A DNA stretch of 53,790 bases, filler included, from Sphacelaria rigidula (lineage: Eukaryota), in NCBI GenBank assembly GCA_964200075.2. It is 3 parts of 3 records of this genome, joined end to end, with 100 filler letters (N's around TTAATTAATTAA, not from the genome) between each part and the next. Parts side by side here need not be neighbours in the genome. Positions count along the whole stretch, not along the records: positions 17,965 to 35,828 come from CAXNAA020000977.1; 2 more parts are not named here. One strand, given 5' to 3'. The notes beneath the pieces are model-generated. The model was not told the DNA's origin and did no database searches. It worked only from the letters and a program-made list of their open reading frames with translations. Below, piece after piece: positions 1,453 through 35,928 of this stretch. Both the position numbers and the translations under genes were made by a program. Positions within the stretch are counted from its first letter, which is position 1, and each line of letters opens with the position of its first letter.

Positions 1453-3475
1453 ATGGAGGAACATGTACGTTTTCATGGTCTTGTGGAATGCCACTAAAGA
1501 AGCACGCTTGCTTTCAACGTGATCGCCAGGCCAAAACGCACATGAAGCACACAACCGGAGCTCCTTCCCCTCAATTTTTTCATTATCCTGAGCCCCGGTG
1601 ACCGTAGGGTTGAGCAATGAAGAGCTGTGATACAAGATCAAATACCAGTACCGCCTGCAAGATTCGTCTATCCGTTATTCGAGAGCGCGTTCTGTGGGGG
1701 CCCCATGGTAATGTGTGTGTCTCACGTTCGTACCCACAGATATTCTTGACGGGCAAGCTAGCCGCTCTCGGGATTGATGAGGACCTGGAGCTGTCGGGCG
1801 GCGAAGAAGAAAATGACGACCCGAGTCCAACGGTCGCTGACAGCTTCTCTGGCTGTCCTGCCGGCAGTAGTGGCAGCAACAAAACTGAAAATAACTCAGT
1901 AGGCCCAAACGACGACCGCAGCGGCACTTCTGAAGCGCCGCCGAATGGCAGCAATATGCGGACAGGCGAGAACGGCTCCAACAGGAGAAATAATGCTGAT
2001 GACGGCCGTCAAACTTGCGCGGCACAGCCAGCTGCTGAAGCATCATCCTCACCATCGTCACCATCGTCGAGGCCCACGGCAGAGCGAGGTGAGAAAGTGG
2101 AGGCGGGAGAGTTGGAACCCGGAGAACTGTTGCAGATGCTGGAGAGACCACTGCAAACGTCCCGCTCTAATTCACATCAAAGGCAGCAGCAACAGCAGCA
2201 GCAGGGTTCATCAACGAGGGGAAATAACAAGCGGAGAAGTAGCAAGCCATCAACCAGCGGAAATAACGGCCGTGCCAAGGGACGCAATGTCACCGTCAAG
2301 GAATGCGCCAAGTGGGTGTGCGAGCGCCTAAAGGAGCCCAAATACTATCTCATGTGCCAGGTTGTGGCGGAAATCGGATACAACAACTCGAAGCGATTAC
2401 TGGAAGAAGTGCGACAGACGCAGGTGGGGAGAGGGAAGATATACGTTCGTTGCTGCGGGGGTATGGAATGGCAGTGTTGTGGGGGACTGACTGACCTGTC
2501 CTCGAAATATCATTCTGGGACGGTGACCGGAATTGCTCACACGGCATTGACTCGCAGGGCGTGTAGCTTCTCTCTGGCTTGTCTTCTTTCTGTTTTTTAG
2601 TCTGCTTGTTTTACCTCTTGCTCTTCCGGGAAAAACCTCTTTCGTGGCACTGTTTGAGCACAGTCAAGCGCCGGAATGTTGTGTCAAACACCAGAGTGCT
2701 GTGCGTACCTGAGCTGATCGTTTCCAAACATGACTAGCTCCCGCTTCGAAAGGTTCCCCCGACATGCGGTTGTCACAGCTGGAGAGAAGCGTATCTTCCG
2801 TGCCAGGGTTCTTCGCGTCGTCTTCTACCCTTGGTTGGAGTGAGCGGTGTTTTCCGGTTTTGTCTTTCTTGTGTGTGATTTGTCTCGTGCTGCCCTGAAT
2901 CCCCCCGTATGCTCGTAGCCCTCAATCGAAGTGCACCCTTGGGTGTTGGAAACTTGTCCACGACGAGCATAAAAAACGAATACGCACAAGGCGCCGATCA
3001 AATCATTTCCCGTTCCACAATTTCGCGGCATTTAGTGAAAAAGAAACAACCCCATTTCGACAACCAAGCGATCAATTCTGCCGCGCAATGCACCGTAAAA
3101 ACCAAAATGTCTACAACGAAACAGGAAGCGGGAGGTATGTCAACGGCGGACGGAGCCCGAAAACGTACTCCGGGGGGCGTCTTCTTCACTCTGCTCAAGC
3201 AGCACATGGAGCCCGCACGACTGAAGGCCCTCTACGCCGACGAAATACGCGTCAAAAAGGAGAAGGAAAGGAAGCGCCGGGCGGCCAACAAACGCAAAGC
3301 TGGGGCCGCCGACGCGGGCGACGACGTGACGTTGGCGACGCCGCGAGATTCGCAAAGAGTGAGGGAGCAGCGTAGCAGATACGGAAATGGCCCCGGCGGG
3401 AGAACCGTAGGCGAGTGGACTGGGCCGACGTACGATTGCGATGTCAAGCGCGTGCGCGCCGCGGCGGGTCCGTAG
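1453..3475 (+). CDS. PHAX: PHAX (phosphorylated adaptor for RNA export) RNA-binding-domain protein, ~348 aa; join(1453..1464,1740..2423,3125..3475)
   Basis: Splicing CAG|GT at 2423/2424 to AG|GAA at 3124/3125 (phase 0) gives ...CERLKEPKYYLMCQVVAEIGYNNSKRLLEEVRQTQ-EAGGMSTADGARKRTPGGVFFTLLK..., the PHAX RBD signature (GGxxTxDGxRxRTPGGVFxxLLK). Acidic/Ser-rich N-terminus and basic C-terminal tail. The 12-nt first exon (ATG GAG GAA CAT|GTACGT) is phase-compatible with the acceptor at 1738-1739 but is tentative. Confidence 0.9.
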
Positions 3476-17864: not shown

Positions 17865-17964
17865 NNNNNNNNNNNNNNNNNNNNNNNNNNNNNNNNNNNN
17901 NNNNNNNNTTAATTAATTAANNNNNNNNNNNNNNNNNNNNNNNNNNNNNNNNNNNNNNNNNNNN
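17865..17964. other. Scaffold gap (N44-TTAATTAATTAA-N44 linker)
   Basis: 100-nt N run with a central TTAATTAATTAA all-frame stop linker; identical to 35829-35928. Confidence 0.97.
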
Positions 17965-27059: not shown

Positions 27060-27815
27060 CGACGAGCACGAGTATGAACCGTGGCACTCGCACTCGTTGG
27101 GCTGCTCGTTGGCCGTAAAAAATACTAAACCGAGTGCTTGAGTCATTGCCCGTTGTGAAATTATTTTTATAGGGCGAGCACTCGAGTTATTGCTTGTTGT
27201 GGGTAAGTGAACGACTCGAGCACATGAGTCATCGCTCGGGATAAACAACTTGATTGGAGTAGTCAGCAAATCGACGAGCAAATAATTCCAGTGAGCTGTA
27301 GGACGATCTTGTATCTAGGATCTTCAAGTTCATATGCATATTTGCACATGTACAAGCGTTTGTTCGACTTTTTTCGTGTCCCTTCTTTTCTTCAGCGAGT
27401 GTTTCAGTTTTGCTTTTCTTGAGTACGTCTATCATGCCACCACGGCTGGACCCCTGAGGGGTCAGTGAGAGTGCGGCAATCAATTAATCATCATTCTCAA
27501 GAAGCGTGAAGGTCCAAGGCTGATTTTCATTTCATTCCACCCCCCAACCCACACACAGATATTAGGCTTCTACTAAAGCAGCGGCGAGTATCTCTTGCGT
27601 AGTACTTTATGGGGCGAGCACACGAGTCATTGCTCGCTGTAAAAAAAAGTAATGACTCGAGCACACGAATTGCTCGTTGTAAAACAAATCATTGACTCGA
27701 GCGCACGAACCATCACTCGTCGTGAAAAACGTGATGACTCGAGCACGCGAGTCATGCTTGTTGTGTTTGCAAAACACATCCATGAGTGCACTCGTTTCGA
27801 TGAGTAATGACTAGT
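27060..27815. repeat. Degenerate ~40-bp tandem array (core GACTCGAGCACNCGAGTCATTGCTCGTTGT) in two blocks, ~27060-27240 and ~27610-27815
   Basis: CGAGCAC/CGAGTCAT/GCTCGTTGT motifs recur at ~40-nt spacing with A-rich linkers; the blocks are separated by ~370 bp of unrelated sequence. Confidence 0.7.
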
Positions 27816-28665
27816 CCGCAAAATTTATTGCACGATTGAGTATCGAAAAGGACTTCTCCCCACCGCGCGCTCGTGCGAGTACATACCCAAGTATAAAATG
27901 TATAGGGTGCTGCAACACGGTTACTCAGTTCGTCGACAAAGCTGTGTGGTGCTTTACATGCGAACTACTTCCCAGCTGGCTCGGGTGTGACACCCATGAG
28001 GCAGTGTATAAGCTGTGGCTGTCTCTGGAAGTGGCGATACCAGAAAATGAAGCAACTCATTGAAGACCGTCATCCAAATGCAAGATAATCAGTAGGCTTC
28101 GGGCCGAACAATCCTAGAAGAGGGCAGCTCACCCTTCATGTAACGCGCCGAACGCACCACGGCGCTTCGCGCTTTGTGACTGAGTGTGAGCCTGGTCCGG
28201 CGAAAACCCGGCGCGCTCCTTCCCGGCTTTGTAATGATGCGAGGTCAATGGTCTCATGACTATGACATGCATGATCATGAATACACCCCCCCAGCTGGCT
28301 CGTCATATCTGACCTAAGTGCTATTTGTTACGGTGGGCGCGCTGTGGCATTTGTATTTTGCTCAAACATTCTTTCCAACAAGGTTGTTCTTACCTTTCTA
28401 CTTGTGCATTGCTCTTTTCGCTTCTGATCCGTACTCTCTTCGTGTGGAAGAGGTCGCAGCACCTGAATCACCGTGGGCAGAATGTTTACAGCTGTGCGAA
28501 TCAGTTGATGTGAAGTGCCAACCAAGTGGATGCAGGTATCTCTCGTTCTTGCGGTTATTGTGCAGCAATAGGAATATCGCTCGTTCTACGAAATAGATCA
28601 AGTAGCTCACGTACAAACTCCCTTCCGCTTGGTCAACTGTGCTACTGTGAGCAGTTTGCTCTCAG

Positions 28666-31190
28666 GAAACCGCCCGAGGAGGGAGCTGACGGCGAACGTA
28701 GCGAGAGGAAACTGCGGCAACAAGGGCTGCTCCGAGCGCCCATCACACGGTTTACGGGGCTACAAGGCGGAGTTCTCATCCAAGCATGGCCGCGCGGGAA
28801 TGGTAAATAACAAACGCAATAAATGCAGCGATAAAGGCTGCTACGATCAACCGTCGTTCGGTGTAATGGTAAGCAAACAGGCGCAGTTCTGTGTCAAGCA
28901 TGCTAGCGCGGGAATGGTATATGTGAGGAGTAAGAAGTGCGGCGACGAAGCCTGCGCCACGCAGCCGACGTTTGGTATAGCGGGAAGCAAAAATGCGCAG
29001 TTCTGCTCCAAACATGCCAGGGAGGGAATGGTATATGTGAGGAATAAGAAGTGCGGCGACGAAGCCTGCGCCAGGCAGCCGACGTTTGGTGTAGCAGGAA
29101 GCAAAAATGCGGAGTTCTGCTTCAAACATGCCAGGGAGGGAATGGTTAATGTGACTAGTAAGAAGTGCGGCAACGGCGGCTGCTCGAAGTGCCCGTCGTT
29201 TGGTGTAGCGGGAAGCAGGAAGGCGGAGTTCTGCTCCAAACATGCCAGGACGGGAATGGTGGATGTGTTCGGTAGGAAGTGCGGCAACGAAGGCTGCTCC
29301 AAGCATCCGTTGTTTGGTGTAGCAGGAAGCAAGAAGGCAGAGTTCTGCTCCGAGCACGCTGCAGTGGGAATGGTTTATATAATAAACAAGAGGTGCGGCG
29401 ATGAAGGCTGCTCCATGCATCCGTCGTTTGGTTCAGCGGGAAGCAAGAAGGCGGAGTTCTGCTCCAAGCATGCCAGGGCGGGAATGGTGAATATCAAACA
29501 CAAGAAGTGCGGCAACGAAGGCTGCTCCAAGCACCCGTCGTTTGGTCTAGCGGGAAGCAAGAAGGCGGAGTTCTGCTCAAAACATGCCAGGACGGGAATG
29601 GTATATGTGAGGAGTGAGAAGTGCGGCGACGAAGGCTGCTCCAAGAAACCGTCGTTTGGTCTAGCGGAAAGCAAAAAGGCGGAGTTCTGCTCCCAACATG
29701 CCAGGGCGGGGATGGTCAATGTGATCAGTACGACGTGCAACAACGAAGGATGCTCTAAGCAACCGTCGTTTGGTGTAGTGGGAAGCAAGAAGGCGGAGTT
29801 CTGCTGTGAGCACGCTGGAGCAGGAATGGTCAATGTGATCCGTAAGAAATGCAACAACGATGGCTGCTTTAAGAAACCGTCGTCTGGTGTCGCGGGAGGC
29901 AAGAAGGCGGAGTTCTGCTCCGAGCATGCCAGGGCGGGAATGGTCAATGTGATCAGTAGGACGTGTAACAACGAAGGATGCTTCAAGCACCCGTCGTTTG
30001 GTGCAGTGGGAAGCAAGAAGGCGGAGTTCTGCTCCGAGCACGCTGGAGCAGGAATGGTCAATGTGATCCGTAAGAAATGCGGCGACGACGGCTGCTCCAA
30101 GCTTCCGTCGTTTGGTGTAGCGGGAAGCAAGAAGGCGGAGTTCTGCTGCAAGCATGCCAGGGCGGGAATGGTCAATGTGATCCGTAAGACGTGCAGCAAC
30201 GACGGCTGCTCCAAGCTTCCGTCGTTTGGTGCAGCGGGAAGCAGGAAGGCGGAGTTCTGCTCCGAGCATGCTAGGGCGGAAATGGTCAATGTGATCCGTA
30301 AGACGTGCAGCAACGAAGGATGCTTCAAGCAAACGTCGTTTGGTGTAGTGGGAAGCAAGAAGGCGGAGTTCTGCTCCAAGCATGCCAGGGCGGAAATTGT
30401 CAATGTAGTGAGTCAAAAGTGCGGCACCGATGGCTGCTTCAAGCGTCCGTCACTTGGTGTAGCGGGAATCAAGAATGCGGAATATTGCGTCCAGTTTGCC
30501 AGGGCGACTATGATAAGTGCGGTCACCCAGGGATTCATCGAAGAGGGATGCTCTAGATTTGATATATTTGAGAGGCGCACCTCTGACAAGATAAAGTACT
30601 CCCGACGGCTTGCTACTGCACACAAGAAAGCTCTCGTTAGTGATACCGGAGAGACCAACCCTGGGATGACCACCTCCGGTCGTGGCCAGACGGGAGGAGA
30701 TCGAAGAGGCGTTGCTGACGTGCGAGAAAAGAAACGAAAGCGTGCAGCCTGTTGGGCTTCTGGTGCAAGCGACAGTGTTGGTGCTCGTCGGAGTGTATAC
30801 TTAGACCCTAGGCGGAGTGGTACGACACCACCGTTGCTTACAGGGCAGCCTCCCACAGGGGCTGATGGTGAAATATCTTCAGAGGCAAGGACTGAGGTAG
30901 TAATGAAGGTAGAGCTGGCAGTCTCTTCTGATGCACGCGGTGTCGATGGGGTCAGAGAGGGTAGCAGGCAGGCCGCCCCTTCGCGGAGTTGGAGCAACGT
31001 AGATAATGGTGGTAGCCCCAGCATCAGTAGTCGTGGTTTCACCACGGGACGGCTGTGTGGTTTGCCAGCAGTGATGCGTGGGTGCACTGGCGCGTTTGAT
31101 GACGCGGAAGCTGAGGAGGCTAAGGAAATTTCAAACGTGAAGTTGGAGGTAGGAGCATCTCGTTCTCTCCCTTGGACGCCGCAACAATGA
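28666..31190 (+). CDS. EsV-1-7 cysteine-rich repeat protein; 16 tandem ~38-aa C-x4-C-x16-C-x2-H repeats plus ~220-aa low-complexity C-terminal tail
   Basis: ORF 28629..31190 with consensus xKKCGNEGCSKxPSFGVAGSKKAEFCSKHARAGMVNVI, the EsV-1-7 motif first described in Ectocarpus siliculosus virus 1 and expanded in brown algae. Likely acceptor CTCTCAG at 28665 (candidate donor at 28536); first in-frame ATG at 28800, so the true start is uncertain. Confidence 0.92.
28704..30524 (+). repeat. Coding tandem array of 16 units of 114 bp (first unit 111 bp)
   Basis: GCGGAGTTCTGCTCC, CCGTCGTTTGGT and GGAATGGT recur with 114-nt period. Confidence 0.95.
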
Positions 31191-31244
31191 CCGATGCTGT
31201 GCGTTCTTTTGCCGGTTTTGACGTCAAGATTCTGCGAGGAGTAT

Positions 31245-31498
31245 GAGTAATGCTACGGTAGGGGTGCACGGTGTTTTCTGAGGTTGAAGTTGTTTGGAGC
31301 CACTCATCTCATCCAAAACACGTCTTACGGAACATGTGAAAATACGCCAGGATTACTAATCCAATGTGCTACGGATATCTCGAATGGATCCTCAACGGGG
31401 ATGCCCTGACCCGTATTGTTGAGCATCTAGAATCGTGAGGAGCTCCTGCACCAGACAAGGTTTTGCGCAAAAAGTGAACCCTTACAGTAGCATTGCTC
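31245..31498. mobile_element. MITE with ~24-bp TIRs, copy 2 (family of 6648-6904), 55 bp after the EsV-1-7 stop codon
   Basis: GAGTAATGCTACGGTAGGGGTGCAC ... GTGAACCCTTACAGTAGCATTGCTC; interior colinear with copy 1 (CAGGATTACTA.TCCAATGTGCTA, CCAGACAAG..TT.GCGCAAAAAGTG). Confidence 0.85.
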
Positions 31499-32262
31499 TC
31501 TGCCGGCGTGCGCTAGGGTTAACTGTCAACACCTTCCAACGAGAGGCAGCTGGTGTTTTGTTTTCTTGTCTCGAGGGGAAGGAGTTTATGAGACAGTGAG
31601 GTTCTGGTATCCTAAACCATGTCCCACCAGGGTTTGTTGAGCAATGGTCATCTAGATGCGCTGCCATATGTTTTGGTACCAATATGCCATGATTTGGGTA
31701 GAGTAGATGCGATGTAGTCGTGAGCTATTCAAGGAACTATGACACTGCTGTCGGACTGTTAGGAACGCGAATCGCGGAGGTATTAGCCTCCGAATTCTAT
31801 CAGGCTGTTGGACGAAGTTTTATCGATCATTGATAACCCATCCTCTTTTCCTTTCTTCCATGCAGACATCATTTTCCGGTTTTCCAGTTGGTAAATGTCT
31901 CAGGCCATTTCGAATTTGGTATTGGATTTCTGTGACAAAAGAATATGTGACGGCAAAGTGTTTCGTTTTTCAGCATATTTTTTGGGCCTTTTCAGAACCA
32001 ATCAGTACTTTTCAAGAACCTTGCACAAAAATCGCCTCAGACGTAAGCCCTGTCCCACACACTTTGATCCCTATCATTTTTTTAACAGAAACCACACAAT
32101 GTCATCACCAGCAGTAGCCACGCGTGGCGGACACACTCCACGTGCACAGCTCCCACACAGAGATGCGCCCAGCTATATGTCCCAAAACTTCGCCAAGTAA
32201 GCGAGCATGGACCCGTCGGCGGGTAGTACGTACCAGCGCTGTCCAGCACGGTATTTACCACT

Positions 32263-35828: not shown

Positions 35829-35928
35829 NNNNNNNNNNNNNNNNNNNNNNNNNNNNNNNNNNNNNNNNNNNNTTAATTAATTAANNNNNNNNNNNNNNNN
35901 NNNNNNNNNNNNNNNNNNNNNNNNNNNN
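35829..35928. other. Scaffold gap (N44-TTAATTAATTAA-N44 linker)
   Basis: 100-nt N run with central TTAATTAATTAA. Confidence 0.97.

What the first reader, a model, noticed from the sequence alone, without database searches (positions are those of the whole stretch)
28704..30524. EsV-1-7 array with a fixed hypervariable residue per repeat: candidate TALE/PPR-like recognition code
Seen: 16 head-to-tail repeats whose scaffold (C-x4-C, PSFG, GSKKAEFC-x2-H, GMV) is nearly invariant even at DNA level, while the residue before the Pro after Cys2 reads R,Q,Q,Q,C,H,H,H,K,Q,K,H,L,L,Q,R (codons CGC/CAA/CAG/TGC/CAT/CAC/AAA/CTT/CGT) and the inter-repeat junction also varies (R-SK, R-NK, T-SK, F-GR, I-NK, K-HK, R-SE, I-ST, I-RK). 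Known: EsV-1-7 motifs are shared between phaeoviruses and brown algae, occur in the developmental regulator IMM and form a fast-evolving family with no established ligand to my knowledge. Inference: a basic Zn-binding solenoid with localised variability could read a nucleic acid sequence one repeat at a time, as TALE, PPR and PUF repeats do.
Basis: partly seen in the sequence, partly recalled or inferred. Interest (0 to 1): 0.78.

Follow-up and report, generated by a model that had tools for sequence, protein, structure and literature searches.

The report
Zinc-repeat array with repeat-specific residues
A brown-alga gene encodes sixteen small zinc-binding EsV-1-7 repeats, and the one residue that differs most from repeat to repeat is kept almost unchanged between species in related genes, which marks it as a likely contact point for a still unknown ligand.

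Summary

Column 9 is the most variable column in this array (2.40 bits). It is not alone: linker columns 35-37 reach 2.0-2.2 bits, and at least ten columns vary.

Its excess of nonsynonymous change is not significant in this array.

The new result is family-wide. In 11 ortholog groups of brown-algal relatives (50 repeats), column 9 changed twice. The mean for variable columns was 9.7 (p=0.003). Column 9 is nevertheless the column that differs most between repeats of one array. So each repeat keeps its own residue there under purifying selection.

Columns 9, 11 and 33-37 flank the zinc knuckle. They look like one repeat-specific patch, not one residue.

Giant-virus relatives join such arrays to a Vsr-like nuclease fold. 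This hints at DNA as the ligand.

A single-residue TALE/PPR-like code, the ligand and the geometry remain untested. This scan noted the viral nuclease fusions before, on other DNA.

The parts
28653..28654 (+). Inferred 3' splice site (AG); the coding exon would begin at 28655, as the third base of a codon
   Evidence: contigs of runs X5, X6 and X7 (kind only guessed as RNA) start to fit at 28652-28654. In X5 and X6 they carry 94 and 85 further letters that do not fit here. Contigs of run X1 run across the site. There is no in-frame ATG between the upstream stop and residue 58 of the ORF.
28655..31190 (+). Last coding exon of the gene, up to stop TGA at 31188-31190. It holds the repeat array and a low-complexity tail. 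The 5' exon or exons were not found.
   Evidence: ORF; stop codon checked; contig cover.
28713..28823 (+). Repeat 1, degenerate: 37 aa, Cys3 replaced by Ser
28824..30419 (+). Repeats 2-15: fourteen 114-nt (38-aa) EsV-1-7 units with intact C-x4-C-x16-C-x2-H
30420..30530 (+). Repeat 16, degenerate: His replaced by Phe
28737..30446 (+). Span of the sixteen column-9 codons. They sit at 28737, 28848 and 28962, then every 114 nt up to 30444. They encode the repeat-specific residue before the Pro.
   Evidence: One search lists each codon and residue.
28815..30527 (+). Span of the sixteen column-36 codons (linker, three residues before the next Cys1). They read R,S,N,S,G,N,H,S,S,R,S,R,R,R,S,T. This is the second hotspot.
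   Evidence: family statistics
30531..31187 (+). 219-aa Ser/Gly/Arg-rich tail with no recognised domain. It holds a basic cluster, KKRKR, at 30729-30743.
   Evidence: No homolog's tail aligns to it: tblastn of 8 homologs gave 53 hits, and the 3 outside the gene all had E >= 0.36.
31191..31900 (+). Probable 3' untranslated region
   Evidence: contigs of X5-X7 run from 30930 to 31851-31905. Their depth falls to 0.4-3.7 in the bin 31927-32127.

Best explanation
This is a spliced host gene of a brown alga. It is probably transcribed. It encodes a new member of the EsV-1-7 family: 16 tandem 38-residue CCCH zinc modules followed by a disordered basic tail.

Shown:
- Each module has a constant scaffold. 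A few positions are individual to each repeat: column 9 first, then the linker columns 33-37 and column 11.
- In related brown-algal genes these positions are the most different between repeats of one array. Between orthologs they are among the least changed.

Inferred:
- These positions lie on either side of the Cys1-x4-Cys2 knuckle. They would form one exposed patch per zinc module, built from the linker of repeat i and the start of repeat i+1.
- The patch contacts a ligand, so the array reads an extended ligand module by module.
- The most likely ligand is nucleic acid, probably DNA. The protein would then be a nuclear sequence-specific binder.
- If so, it works more like a C2H2 zinc-finger array, with several residues per module, than like a one-residue TALE/PPR code.
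For: 1. The array and its family are certain.
2. Among 62 arrays of 5 or more intact repeats from 197 homologs, column 9 has the highest mean within-array entropy: 1.80 bits, next 1.47. It is top or co-top in 24 of 62 arrays.
3. Among 151 intra-protein repeat pairs at least 75% identical, column 9 differs in 66% and column 36 in 64%. The next column reaches 42%.
4. Excess identity between adjacent repeats is lowest at columns 37, 9, 36, 33, 11 and 35 (0.06-0.18). The other 26 variable columns lie at 0.22-0.73 (576 adjacent pairs).
5. In orthologs, 11 groups with 50 repeats gave 279 minimal changes. Column 9 changed 2 times against a mean of 9.67 per variable column (one-sided binomial p=0.003). 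That equals Pro10, Gly13 and Gly16. The six patch columns took 35 of 232 changes where 58 were expected (p=0.0002).
6. At matched identity over the other 37 columns, column 9 differs in 80 of 127 (0.8-0.9) and 11 of 19 (0.9 or more) intra-array pairs. It differs in 0 of 15 and 0 of 25 ortholog pairs.
7. Two same-species paralog pairs changed column 9 in 4 of 5 and 2 of 2 repeats, at about 25% overall change.
8. Column 9 holds R 25%, Q 22%, I 8%, H 7% and K 7%. Asp occurs 0 times and Glu once in 428 distinct units.
9. The array has pI 9.39 and net charge +52. The tail holds KKRKR.
10. At least 409 proteins share the C-terminal domain of giant-virus protein L001:3004-4773, and all 120 listed carry PF19114. 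A model of that domain (pLDDT 71) is closest to Vsr endonuclease 1cw0_A (Z 7.5, rmsd 3.6, 112 aligned) and to the I-Bth0305I catalytic domain 3r3p_B (Z 6.1, 95 aligned).
11. Column 9 of one repeat covaries weakly with columns 36, 33, 37 and 35 of the repeat before it. These are four of the seven best of 176 junction-spanning pairs.
Against: - No call tests binding to anything.
- The ortholog evidence comes from other family members (Ectocarpus, Pylaiella and unnamed records), not from this gene. Its best relatives are only 52-60% identical.
- The ortholog groups are few. Pairs within a group are not independent. The patch test was framed after seeing the data.
- In this array column 9 has the most nonsynonymous changes: 12.2, next 8. 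Its rate is only about 0.9 times its own synonymous rate, or about 1.9 times the array-wide rate. This is not significant over 38 columns.
- The three closest repeat pairs differ at columns 14 and 24 in 3 of 3, and at column 9 in 1 of 3.
- The link to DNA rests on distant viral relatives (39% identity over the array). It also rests on a middling structural score: Z 7.5 is under the tool's own caution line of 8, and Foldseek found nothing at E <= 0.001.
- This protein has no nuclease domain.
- Known base-reading codes (recalled) use acidic residues, which column 9 lacks.
- The patch geometry is inferred from sequence symmetry and the model's strands. I did not measure it.
- The runs taken as RNA are only guessed to be RNA.
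Confidence: 0.45

Rival explanations
1. One residue per repeat (column 9) specifies one base, as in TALE, PPR or PUF arrays. The sixteen repeats would spell a 16-nucleotide target.
For: Column 9 is the single most repeat-individual position. It is conserved between orthologs. Its residues are mainly R, Q, H and K.
Against: - Column 36 is as individual as column 9, and columns 11, 33, 35 and 37 follow.
- In the viral nuclease-fused arrays column 11 is top in 25 of 62 arrays, and columns 24-25 and 7-8 also vary.
- At least 19 different residues occur at column 9. That is far more states than a four-letter code needs.
- The repeats have a zinc/beta fold, not helical hairpins.
Confidence: 0.1
2. 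The array is a scaffold that binds proteins or peptides. The repeat-specific patches would each dock a different partner or a repeated peptide ligand. Nucleic acid is not involved.
For: - Conservation between orthologs combined with diversity among repeats fits any specific ligand.
- Column 9 also holds I, L, V, Y, W and F in about a fifth of units.
- A 2026 preprint states that no Ectocarpus EsV-1-7 protein carries any other Pfam domain, so no DNA-related partner domain is known in the algae (passage read).
Against: - The array carries a strong net positive charge, and acidic residues are nearly absent at column 9.
- Viral relatives place the array in front of a nuclease-like domain, where a DNA-targeting module is the simplest reading.
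Confidence: 0.3
3. The variability carries no information. Column 9 and the linker would simply be unconstrained surface positions in a structural or zinc-storing repeat.
For: In this array the nonsynonymous rate at column 9 is near the synonymous rate, not clearly above it. Overall dN/dS of the repeats is 0.47-0.61.
Against: An unconstrained site should be among the first to change between orthologs. Column 9 changed 2 times. Columns 29, 7, 25 and 2 changed 20, 17, 17 and 15 times. Column 9 ranks 25th to 31st of 38 in ortholog pairs.
Confidence: 0.1

Closest known systems
EsV-1-7 cysteine-rich repeat family (Pfam PF19114 / IPR043822): EsV-1 gene 7 and the brown-algal family that includes the developmental regulator IMMEDIATE UPRIGHT
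   Same: The motif C-x4-C-x16-C-x2-H, the 38-residue period, the tandem arrangement and the absence of other domains are all the same. The family is large and expanded in brown algae (passages read).
   Different: - This gene has 16 repeats. From recall of Macaisne et al. 2017, which I could not read, IMM has five.
- The 79 relatives have 1 to 11 repeats by my HMM.
- The nearest relatives are only 52-60% identical.
- No paper I could search assigns a ligand or names specificity positions.
Giant-virus EsV-1-7 arrays joined to a Vsr-like / EDxHD-type nuclease domain
   Same: The repeat unit is the same: 10 PF19114 stretches and 39% identity over the array. Variable positions also cluster after Cys2 and in the linker.
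   Different: - The window's protein has no nuclease domain. Its tail is low-complexity.
- The viral units mostly have one residue fewer between Cys2 and Cys3.
- In the viral set the variable columns change fast between relatives. In algal orthologs column 9 is conserved.
C2H2 zinc-finger arrays (for example KRAB zinc-finger genes)
   Same: Both are tandem zinc modules with a constant scaffold and a few individual positions per module. From recall, C2H2 contact residues are conserved in orthologs and diverge in paralogs. The pattern here is alike.
   Different: - The ligand order is CCCH with a 38-residue period.
- There is no beta-beta-alpha helix in the model.
- There is no Pfam C2H2 match.
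- DNA binding is not shown.
TALE, PPR and PUF repeat codes
   Same: Both have long tandem arrays of 33-38-residue units with localised, repeat-specific residues.
   Different: - Those repeats are helical and hold no zinc. This model has strands at columns 12-14 and 31-33 and almost no helix.
- Variation here spreads over at least ten columns.
- No one-to-one reading is shown.

Membership tests
EsV-1-7 cysteine-rich repeat family (PF19114) | Match to the Pfam model above its gathering score | tested here: met
   717.9 bits against a cut-off of 25, with 16 stretches.
EsV-1-7 cysteine-rich repeat family (PF19114) | C-x4-C-x16-C-x2-H spacing in tandem units of about 38 residues | tested here: met
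   14 of 16 units are intact. Repeat 1 lacks Cys3 and repeat 16 lacks His.
EsV-1-7 cysteine-rich repeat family (PF19114) | Zinc binding by the four ligands | not testable with these tools
   It is inferred only from the invariant Cys and His residues.
TALE repeats | Two-helix repeats of 33-35 residues | tested here: not met
   the units are 38 residues long, with strands at columns 12-14 and 31-33 and almost no helix. There is no Pfam TALE match.
TALE repeats | Variation confined to the two-residue RVD in otherwise near-identical repeats | tested here: not met
   at least ten columns vary, and repeat DNA is 59-94% identical.
TALE / PPR / PUF codes | One repeat reads one base | not testable with these tools
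   This needs binding data.
C2H2 zinc-finger arrays | C-x2-4-C-x12-H-x3-5-H beta-beta-alpha units | tested here: not met
   The ligand order is CCCH. There is no C2H2 family among the Pfam matches up to E 10.
Viral EsV-1-7 / Vsr-like nuclease fusions | C-terminal Vsr-like nuclease domain after the array | tested here: not met
   The window's tail matches no NCBIfam family. No Pfam family other than PF19114 reaches its cut-off on the whole ORF. No homolog's tail aligns to it.
Viral EsV-1-7 / Vsr-like nuclease fusions | The C-terminal domain of the viral relatives has a Vsr / PD-(D/E)xK-like fold | tested here: inconclusive
   Z 7.5 to 1cw0_A and 6.1 to 3r3p_B, with the next row at 5.5. Foldseek found nothing at E <= 0.001, though its top rows are PD-(D/E)xK nucleases at E 0.13-0.8. 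The model has pLDDT 71.

The most novel reading that the evidence does not exclude
EsV-1-7 arrays may be a further natural class of modular, programmable nucleic-acid readers. Each zinc module would present a small patch flanking the Cys-x4-Cys knuckle. The patch would be made of columns 33-37 of one repeat and columns 7-11 of the next, with column 9 as its key residue. It would specify one or a few bases. Brown algae would have expanded these proteins into hundreds of sequence-specific regulators, and giant viruses would use them to aim nucleases.
Probability: 0.17. Interest if true: 0.9.

Novelty: new member of a known kind. Interest (0 to 1): 0.6.

Why it matters
The EsV-1-7 repeat defines one of the largest gene families of brown algae. 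Passages read give up to 335 genes in one species. The family includes the developmental regulator IMM. The papers I could search still call its function unknown.

Column 9 is individual to each repeat yet as conserved between orthologs as the scaffold Pro and Gly. This turns 'unknown repeat' into a concrete, testable model: a modular binder with named specificity positions. The viral nuclease fusions make DNA the ligand to test first.

If the model holds, the expansion of the family would read as an expansion of sequence-specific regulators. The repeat could also become a new engineerable scaffold.

Tried and rejected
- **Whole genome.** I used 284 and later 436 database proteins instead.
- **Macaisne et al. 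2017.** The paper is not held. What I say of it is recalled or taken from citing passages.
- **Supplements.** They are closed. Table S17 of the 2024 preprint lists EsV-1-7 proteins of 31 genomes and may hold this gene or its orthologs.
- **PDB by sequence.** No hit for six repeats up to E 10. For the viral C-terminal domain there was one chance hit at E 1.2.
- **Fold search with the 606-residue array model.**
  - Foldseek found nothing at E <= 0.001.
  - VIA-align's best was Z 3.8, mostly on the low-confidence unit 490-536. A20-type and other small zinc fingers scored Z 2-3.
  - This says nothing firm about the fold.
- **Model coordinates.** They are not given to the script box. Solvent exposure and the direction of the variable residues could not be measured.
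- **Viral loci.** The search for related loci failed with the big alignment. With the 38-column repeat alignment it found 32 pattern matches and confirmed none. The single-protein query gave one locus.
- **Runs on record as RNA.** No RNA holder is listed. The four runs guessed as RNA were used only for what their contigs cover or bridge.
- **Orthologs of P0011.** None closer than 59%. The ortholog groups came from other proteins in the same answer and from clusters.
- **Covariation of column 9 within one repeat.** Nothing notable; the highest APC-corrected MI was 0.069.
- **Protein atlas.** It returned only EsV-1-7 clusters, mostly of Nucleocytoviricota.
- **Other database checks.** Pfam on ten other ORFs of the window gave one weak PHAX match and no viral hallmark. 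There are no earlier notes on this genome or on look-alike stretches.
Full report
**What is there**

Window 28629-31190 (+) is one open frame of 853 codons. Tandem Repeats Finder reports a 114-nt unit, 15.1 copies, 82% matches, no indels and score 1908. [quoted passage not shown] An HMM built from the repeats finds exactly these 16 units at 28713-30530 and nothing else in the six frames of the window.

- Units are 38 residues long, except the first, which has 37.
- Fourteen keep C-x4-C-x16-C-x2-H. Repeat 1 has Ser for Cys3 and repeat 16 has Phe for His.
- The long antisense ORFs over the array are a by-product of the repeat.

**Gene and context**

The frame has no ATG before residue 58. Contigs of three runs whose kind is only guessed as RNA begin to fit at 28652-28654. 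In two of these runs they carry 85-94 further letters that do not fit here. Contigs of another run cross the site. The three runs cover 28655 to about 31900 and then drop. I read this as a splice acceptor at 28653-28654 with an upstream exon that I did not find. This is an inference.

The tail (30531-31187) is low-complexity, matches no family and aligns with no homolog's tail. It holds KKRKR. The array has pI 9.39 and net charge +52. Ten other ORFs of the window gave one weak PHAX match and no viral hallmark. With the splice, this looks like a host gene, not an inserted virus.

The best database relatives are brown-algal proteins 52-60% identical. The representative library holds 6406 relatives at E <= 0.001.

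**Is variability localised in this array?**

Column 9 has the highest entropy, 2.40 bits. Columns 35, 36, 37 and 14 follow at 2.22, 2.18, 1.97 and 1.79.

I ran a parsimony count on a tree of the 16 repeat DNAs:
- The array has 61.8 synonymous and 141.2 nonsynonymous changes, omega about 0.61.
- Column 9 has the most nonsynonymous changes, 12.2. The next are 8 at column 36 and 7 at columns 2, 14 and 24.
- Column 9 also has 2.8 synonymous changes. Its rate is about 0.9 times its own synonymous rate, or about 1.9 times the array-wide one.
- This does not survive correction for 38 columns.

Pairwise Nei-Gojobori values average dS 0.43 and dN 0.20 over 91 pairs. The three closest pairs differ at columns 14 and 24 in all three and at column 9 in one. 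So the scaffold is not invariant at DNA level. Column 9 is first among several variable positions, and there is no proof of positive selection in this array alone.

**Family-wide pattern**

From 197 homologs I took 669 intact, gapless units.
- In 62 arrays of at least five units, column 9 has the highest mean within-array entropy: 1.80, next 1.47. It is top or co-top in 24 arrays.
- Its overall entropy (3.42) is no higher than that of columns 2, 7, 14 or 28. What sets column 9 apart is diversity within an array.
- In 151 intra-protein repeat pairs at least 75% identical, column 9 differs in 66%, column 36 in 64% and the next column in 42%.

In 576 adjacent repeat pairs, the excess of identity over chance is lowest at columns 37, 9, 36, 33, 11 and 35 (0.06-0.18). 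All other variable columns lie at 0.22-0.73. Those other columns follow an array-specific consensus. These six are individual to each repeat.

**The decisive comparison**

I asked whether these individual residues drift or are kept. All-against-all BLAST of the fetched proteins, plus one cluster look-up, gave 11 groups of close homologs. Most are from different Ectocarpus species.

- Over 50 orthologous repeats and 279 minimal changes, column 9 changed twice. Columns 29, 7, 25 and 2 changed 20, 17, 17 and 15 times.
- The mean of the 24 variable columns is 9.67 (binomial p=0.003). Column 9 is as stable as Pro10, Gly13 and Gly16.
- The six patch columns took 35 of 232 changes where 58 were expected (p=0.0002). 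I framed this test after seeing the data.
- A first, smaller version gave 1 of 43 for column 9, against 139 of 1032 for other variable columns (Fisher p=0.034).

At matched identity over the other 37 columns:

| Identity over other 37 columns | Intra-array pairs differing at column 9 | Ortholog pairs differing at column 9 |
|---|---|---|
| 0.8-0.9 | 80 of 127 | 0 of 15 |
| 0.9 or more | 11 of 19 | 0 of 25 |

In looser pairs (65-71% identical) the picture splits. Two pairs changed 1 of 8 and 1 of 6. Two same-species paralog pairs changed 4 of 5 and 2 of 2.

An unconstrained site would be among the first to change between orthologs, and column 9 is among the last. So the residue is selected for in each repeat and differs from repeat to repeat.

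Caveats:
- The groups are few.
- Pairs within a group are not independent.
- None of the groups is the window's own gene.

**One patch rather than one residue**

The individual columns lie on both sides of the Cys1-x4-Cys2 knuckle. Columns 33-37 come just before it and columns 9 and 11 just after.

The AlphaFold model has mean pLDDT 75, above 90 over most of residues 190-490. It places a strand at columns 31-33 and another at columns 12-14 of the next repeat, symmetric about the knuckle. If these pair, column 36 of one repeat faces column 9 of the next.

Covariation gives weak support. Column 9 couples with columns 36, 33, 37 and 35 of the preceding repeat. These are four of the seven best of 176 junction-spanning pairs. 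Column 9 hardly couples with column 36 of its own repeat.

I had no coordinates, so this geometry is inferred.

**What might the ligand be?**

Column 9 holds R 25%, Q 22%, I 8%, H 7% and K 7%. It holds almost no acidic residue: 0 Asp and 1 Glu in 428 units. The array is strongly basic.

Earlier notes of this scan said that giant viruses join EsV-1-7 arrays to a Vsr-like nuclease. I checked this on an example of my own.
- Locus L001, from a viral contig, encodes ten PF19114 repeats followed by about 200 residues with no Pfam, NCBIfam or PDB sequence match.
- At least 409 database proteins share that domain, and all 120 listed carry PF19114.
- The model of the domain (pLDDT 71) is closest to Vsr endonuclease 1cw0_A (Z 7.5, rmsd 3.6, 112 aligned) and to the I-Bth0305I catalytic domain 3r3p_B (Z 6.1). 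The next row is at 5.5.
- Foldseek found nothing at E <= 0.001, though its top rows are PD-(D/E)xK nucleases.

This is a middling match, consistent with the earlier notes but not proof. In that viral set the most variable columns within arrays are 11, 9, 7, 24, 25 and 8. Positional repeat pairs between relatives differ most at columns 25, 11, 9, 24, 7, 36 and 8. That count used 636 non-independent pairs whose positional homology is assumed.

A targeting array in front of a nuclease is the simplest reading, and it makes DNA the ligand to test first. The window's protein has no nuclease domain, and nothing here tests binding.

**Comparison with what is known**

The gene is a clear member of the EsV-1-7 family. 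The papers I could search describe that family as follows:
- It is a possible new class of zinc finger, greatly expanded in brown algae.
- It is present in the regulator IMM.
- It has no other Pfam domain in Ectocarpus.
- Its function is unknown (passages read).

Eleven papers in the library hold the term 'EsV-1-7' and two hold the Pfam or InterPro accession. None has it in the title or abstract. In the passages I read, none names a ligand or specificity positions. The 2017 paper that defined the family is not held.

The array is not a TALE, PPR, PUF or C2H2 repeat by fold or motif. In evolutionary behaviour it resembles C2H2 arrays most: constant scaffold, a few individual residues per module, conserved in orthologs, divergent in paralogs. 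That comparison is recalled, not tested.

**Verdict**

There is a repeat-specific, selectively maintained position, as a recognition model needs. It is part of a patch of several residues.
- The ligand is unknown.
- A one-residue code is unlikely.
- The gene is a new member of a known family. The ortholog pattern is the part worth following up.

Noticed in passing
window 27907-28308: Summed contig depth here is 1-4 million in run X1 and about 80,000-107,000 in X5-X7. Neighbouring unique sequence lies around 70. Many joints and loose ends sit at 28069-28117. This is probably a very high-copy transposable-element fragment inside the presumed intron or promoter of the gene.
   Followed up: no
window 27615-27709: A 40-nt tandem repeat of 2.3 copies with 83% matches. 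It lies upstream of the gene, in another high-depth stretch.
   Followed up: no
window 17865-17964 and 35829-35928: Two pairs of 44-base runs of N, each pair 12 bases apart (one search counted 176 N in all; one search lists the runs). They are masked or unresolved stretches.
   Followed up: no
window 1614-2600 (+): An ORF of 328 codons with a weak match to the PHAX RNA-binding domain (PF10258, E 4.4e-05, 23.8 bits against a cut-off of 25). It is possibly an exon of a host gene.
   Followed up: no
window 29622-30077 (repeats 9-12): Repeats 10 and 12 are 94% identical in DNA, and repeats 9 and 11 are 86% identical. This suggests a duplication of a two-repeat, 228-nt block. Repeats 13/14 (93%) and 3/4 (91%) look like single-unit duplications.
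   Followed up: partly
P0234, P0210 and other homologs: Some EsV-1-7 repeats also reach the Pfam model PF24906, 'WRKY19 zinc finger domain', for example 31.3 bits against a cut-off of 27 in P0234. The two models appear to describe overlapping motifs. This hints at related repeats in plant WRKY19-like proteins.
   Followed up: no
L001:3004-4773: In the giant-virus relatives the C-terminal domain is 62-80% identical across 120 listed proteins, while total length runs from 329 to 676 residues. So the number of repeats changes much faster than the nuclease-like domain. Invariant residues include E102, C103, D104, E105, Q107 and H108 of the domain.
   Followed up: partly
window 28776-30449 (-): Several long antisense ORFs (up to 342 codons) overlap the array. 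They repeat with the same 114-nt period. I take them as a by-product of the repeat, not as genes.
   Followed up: no
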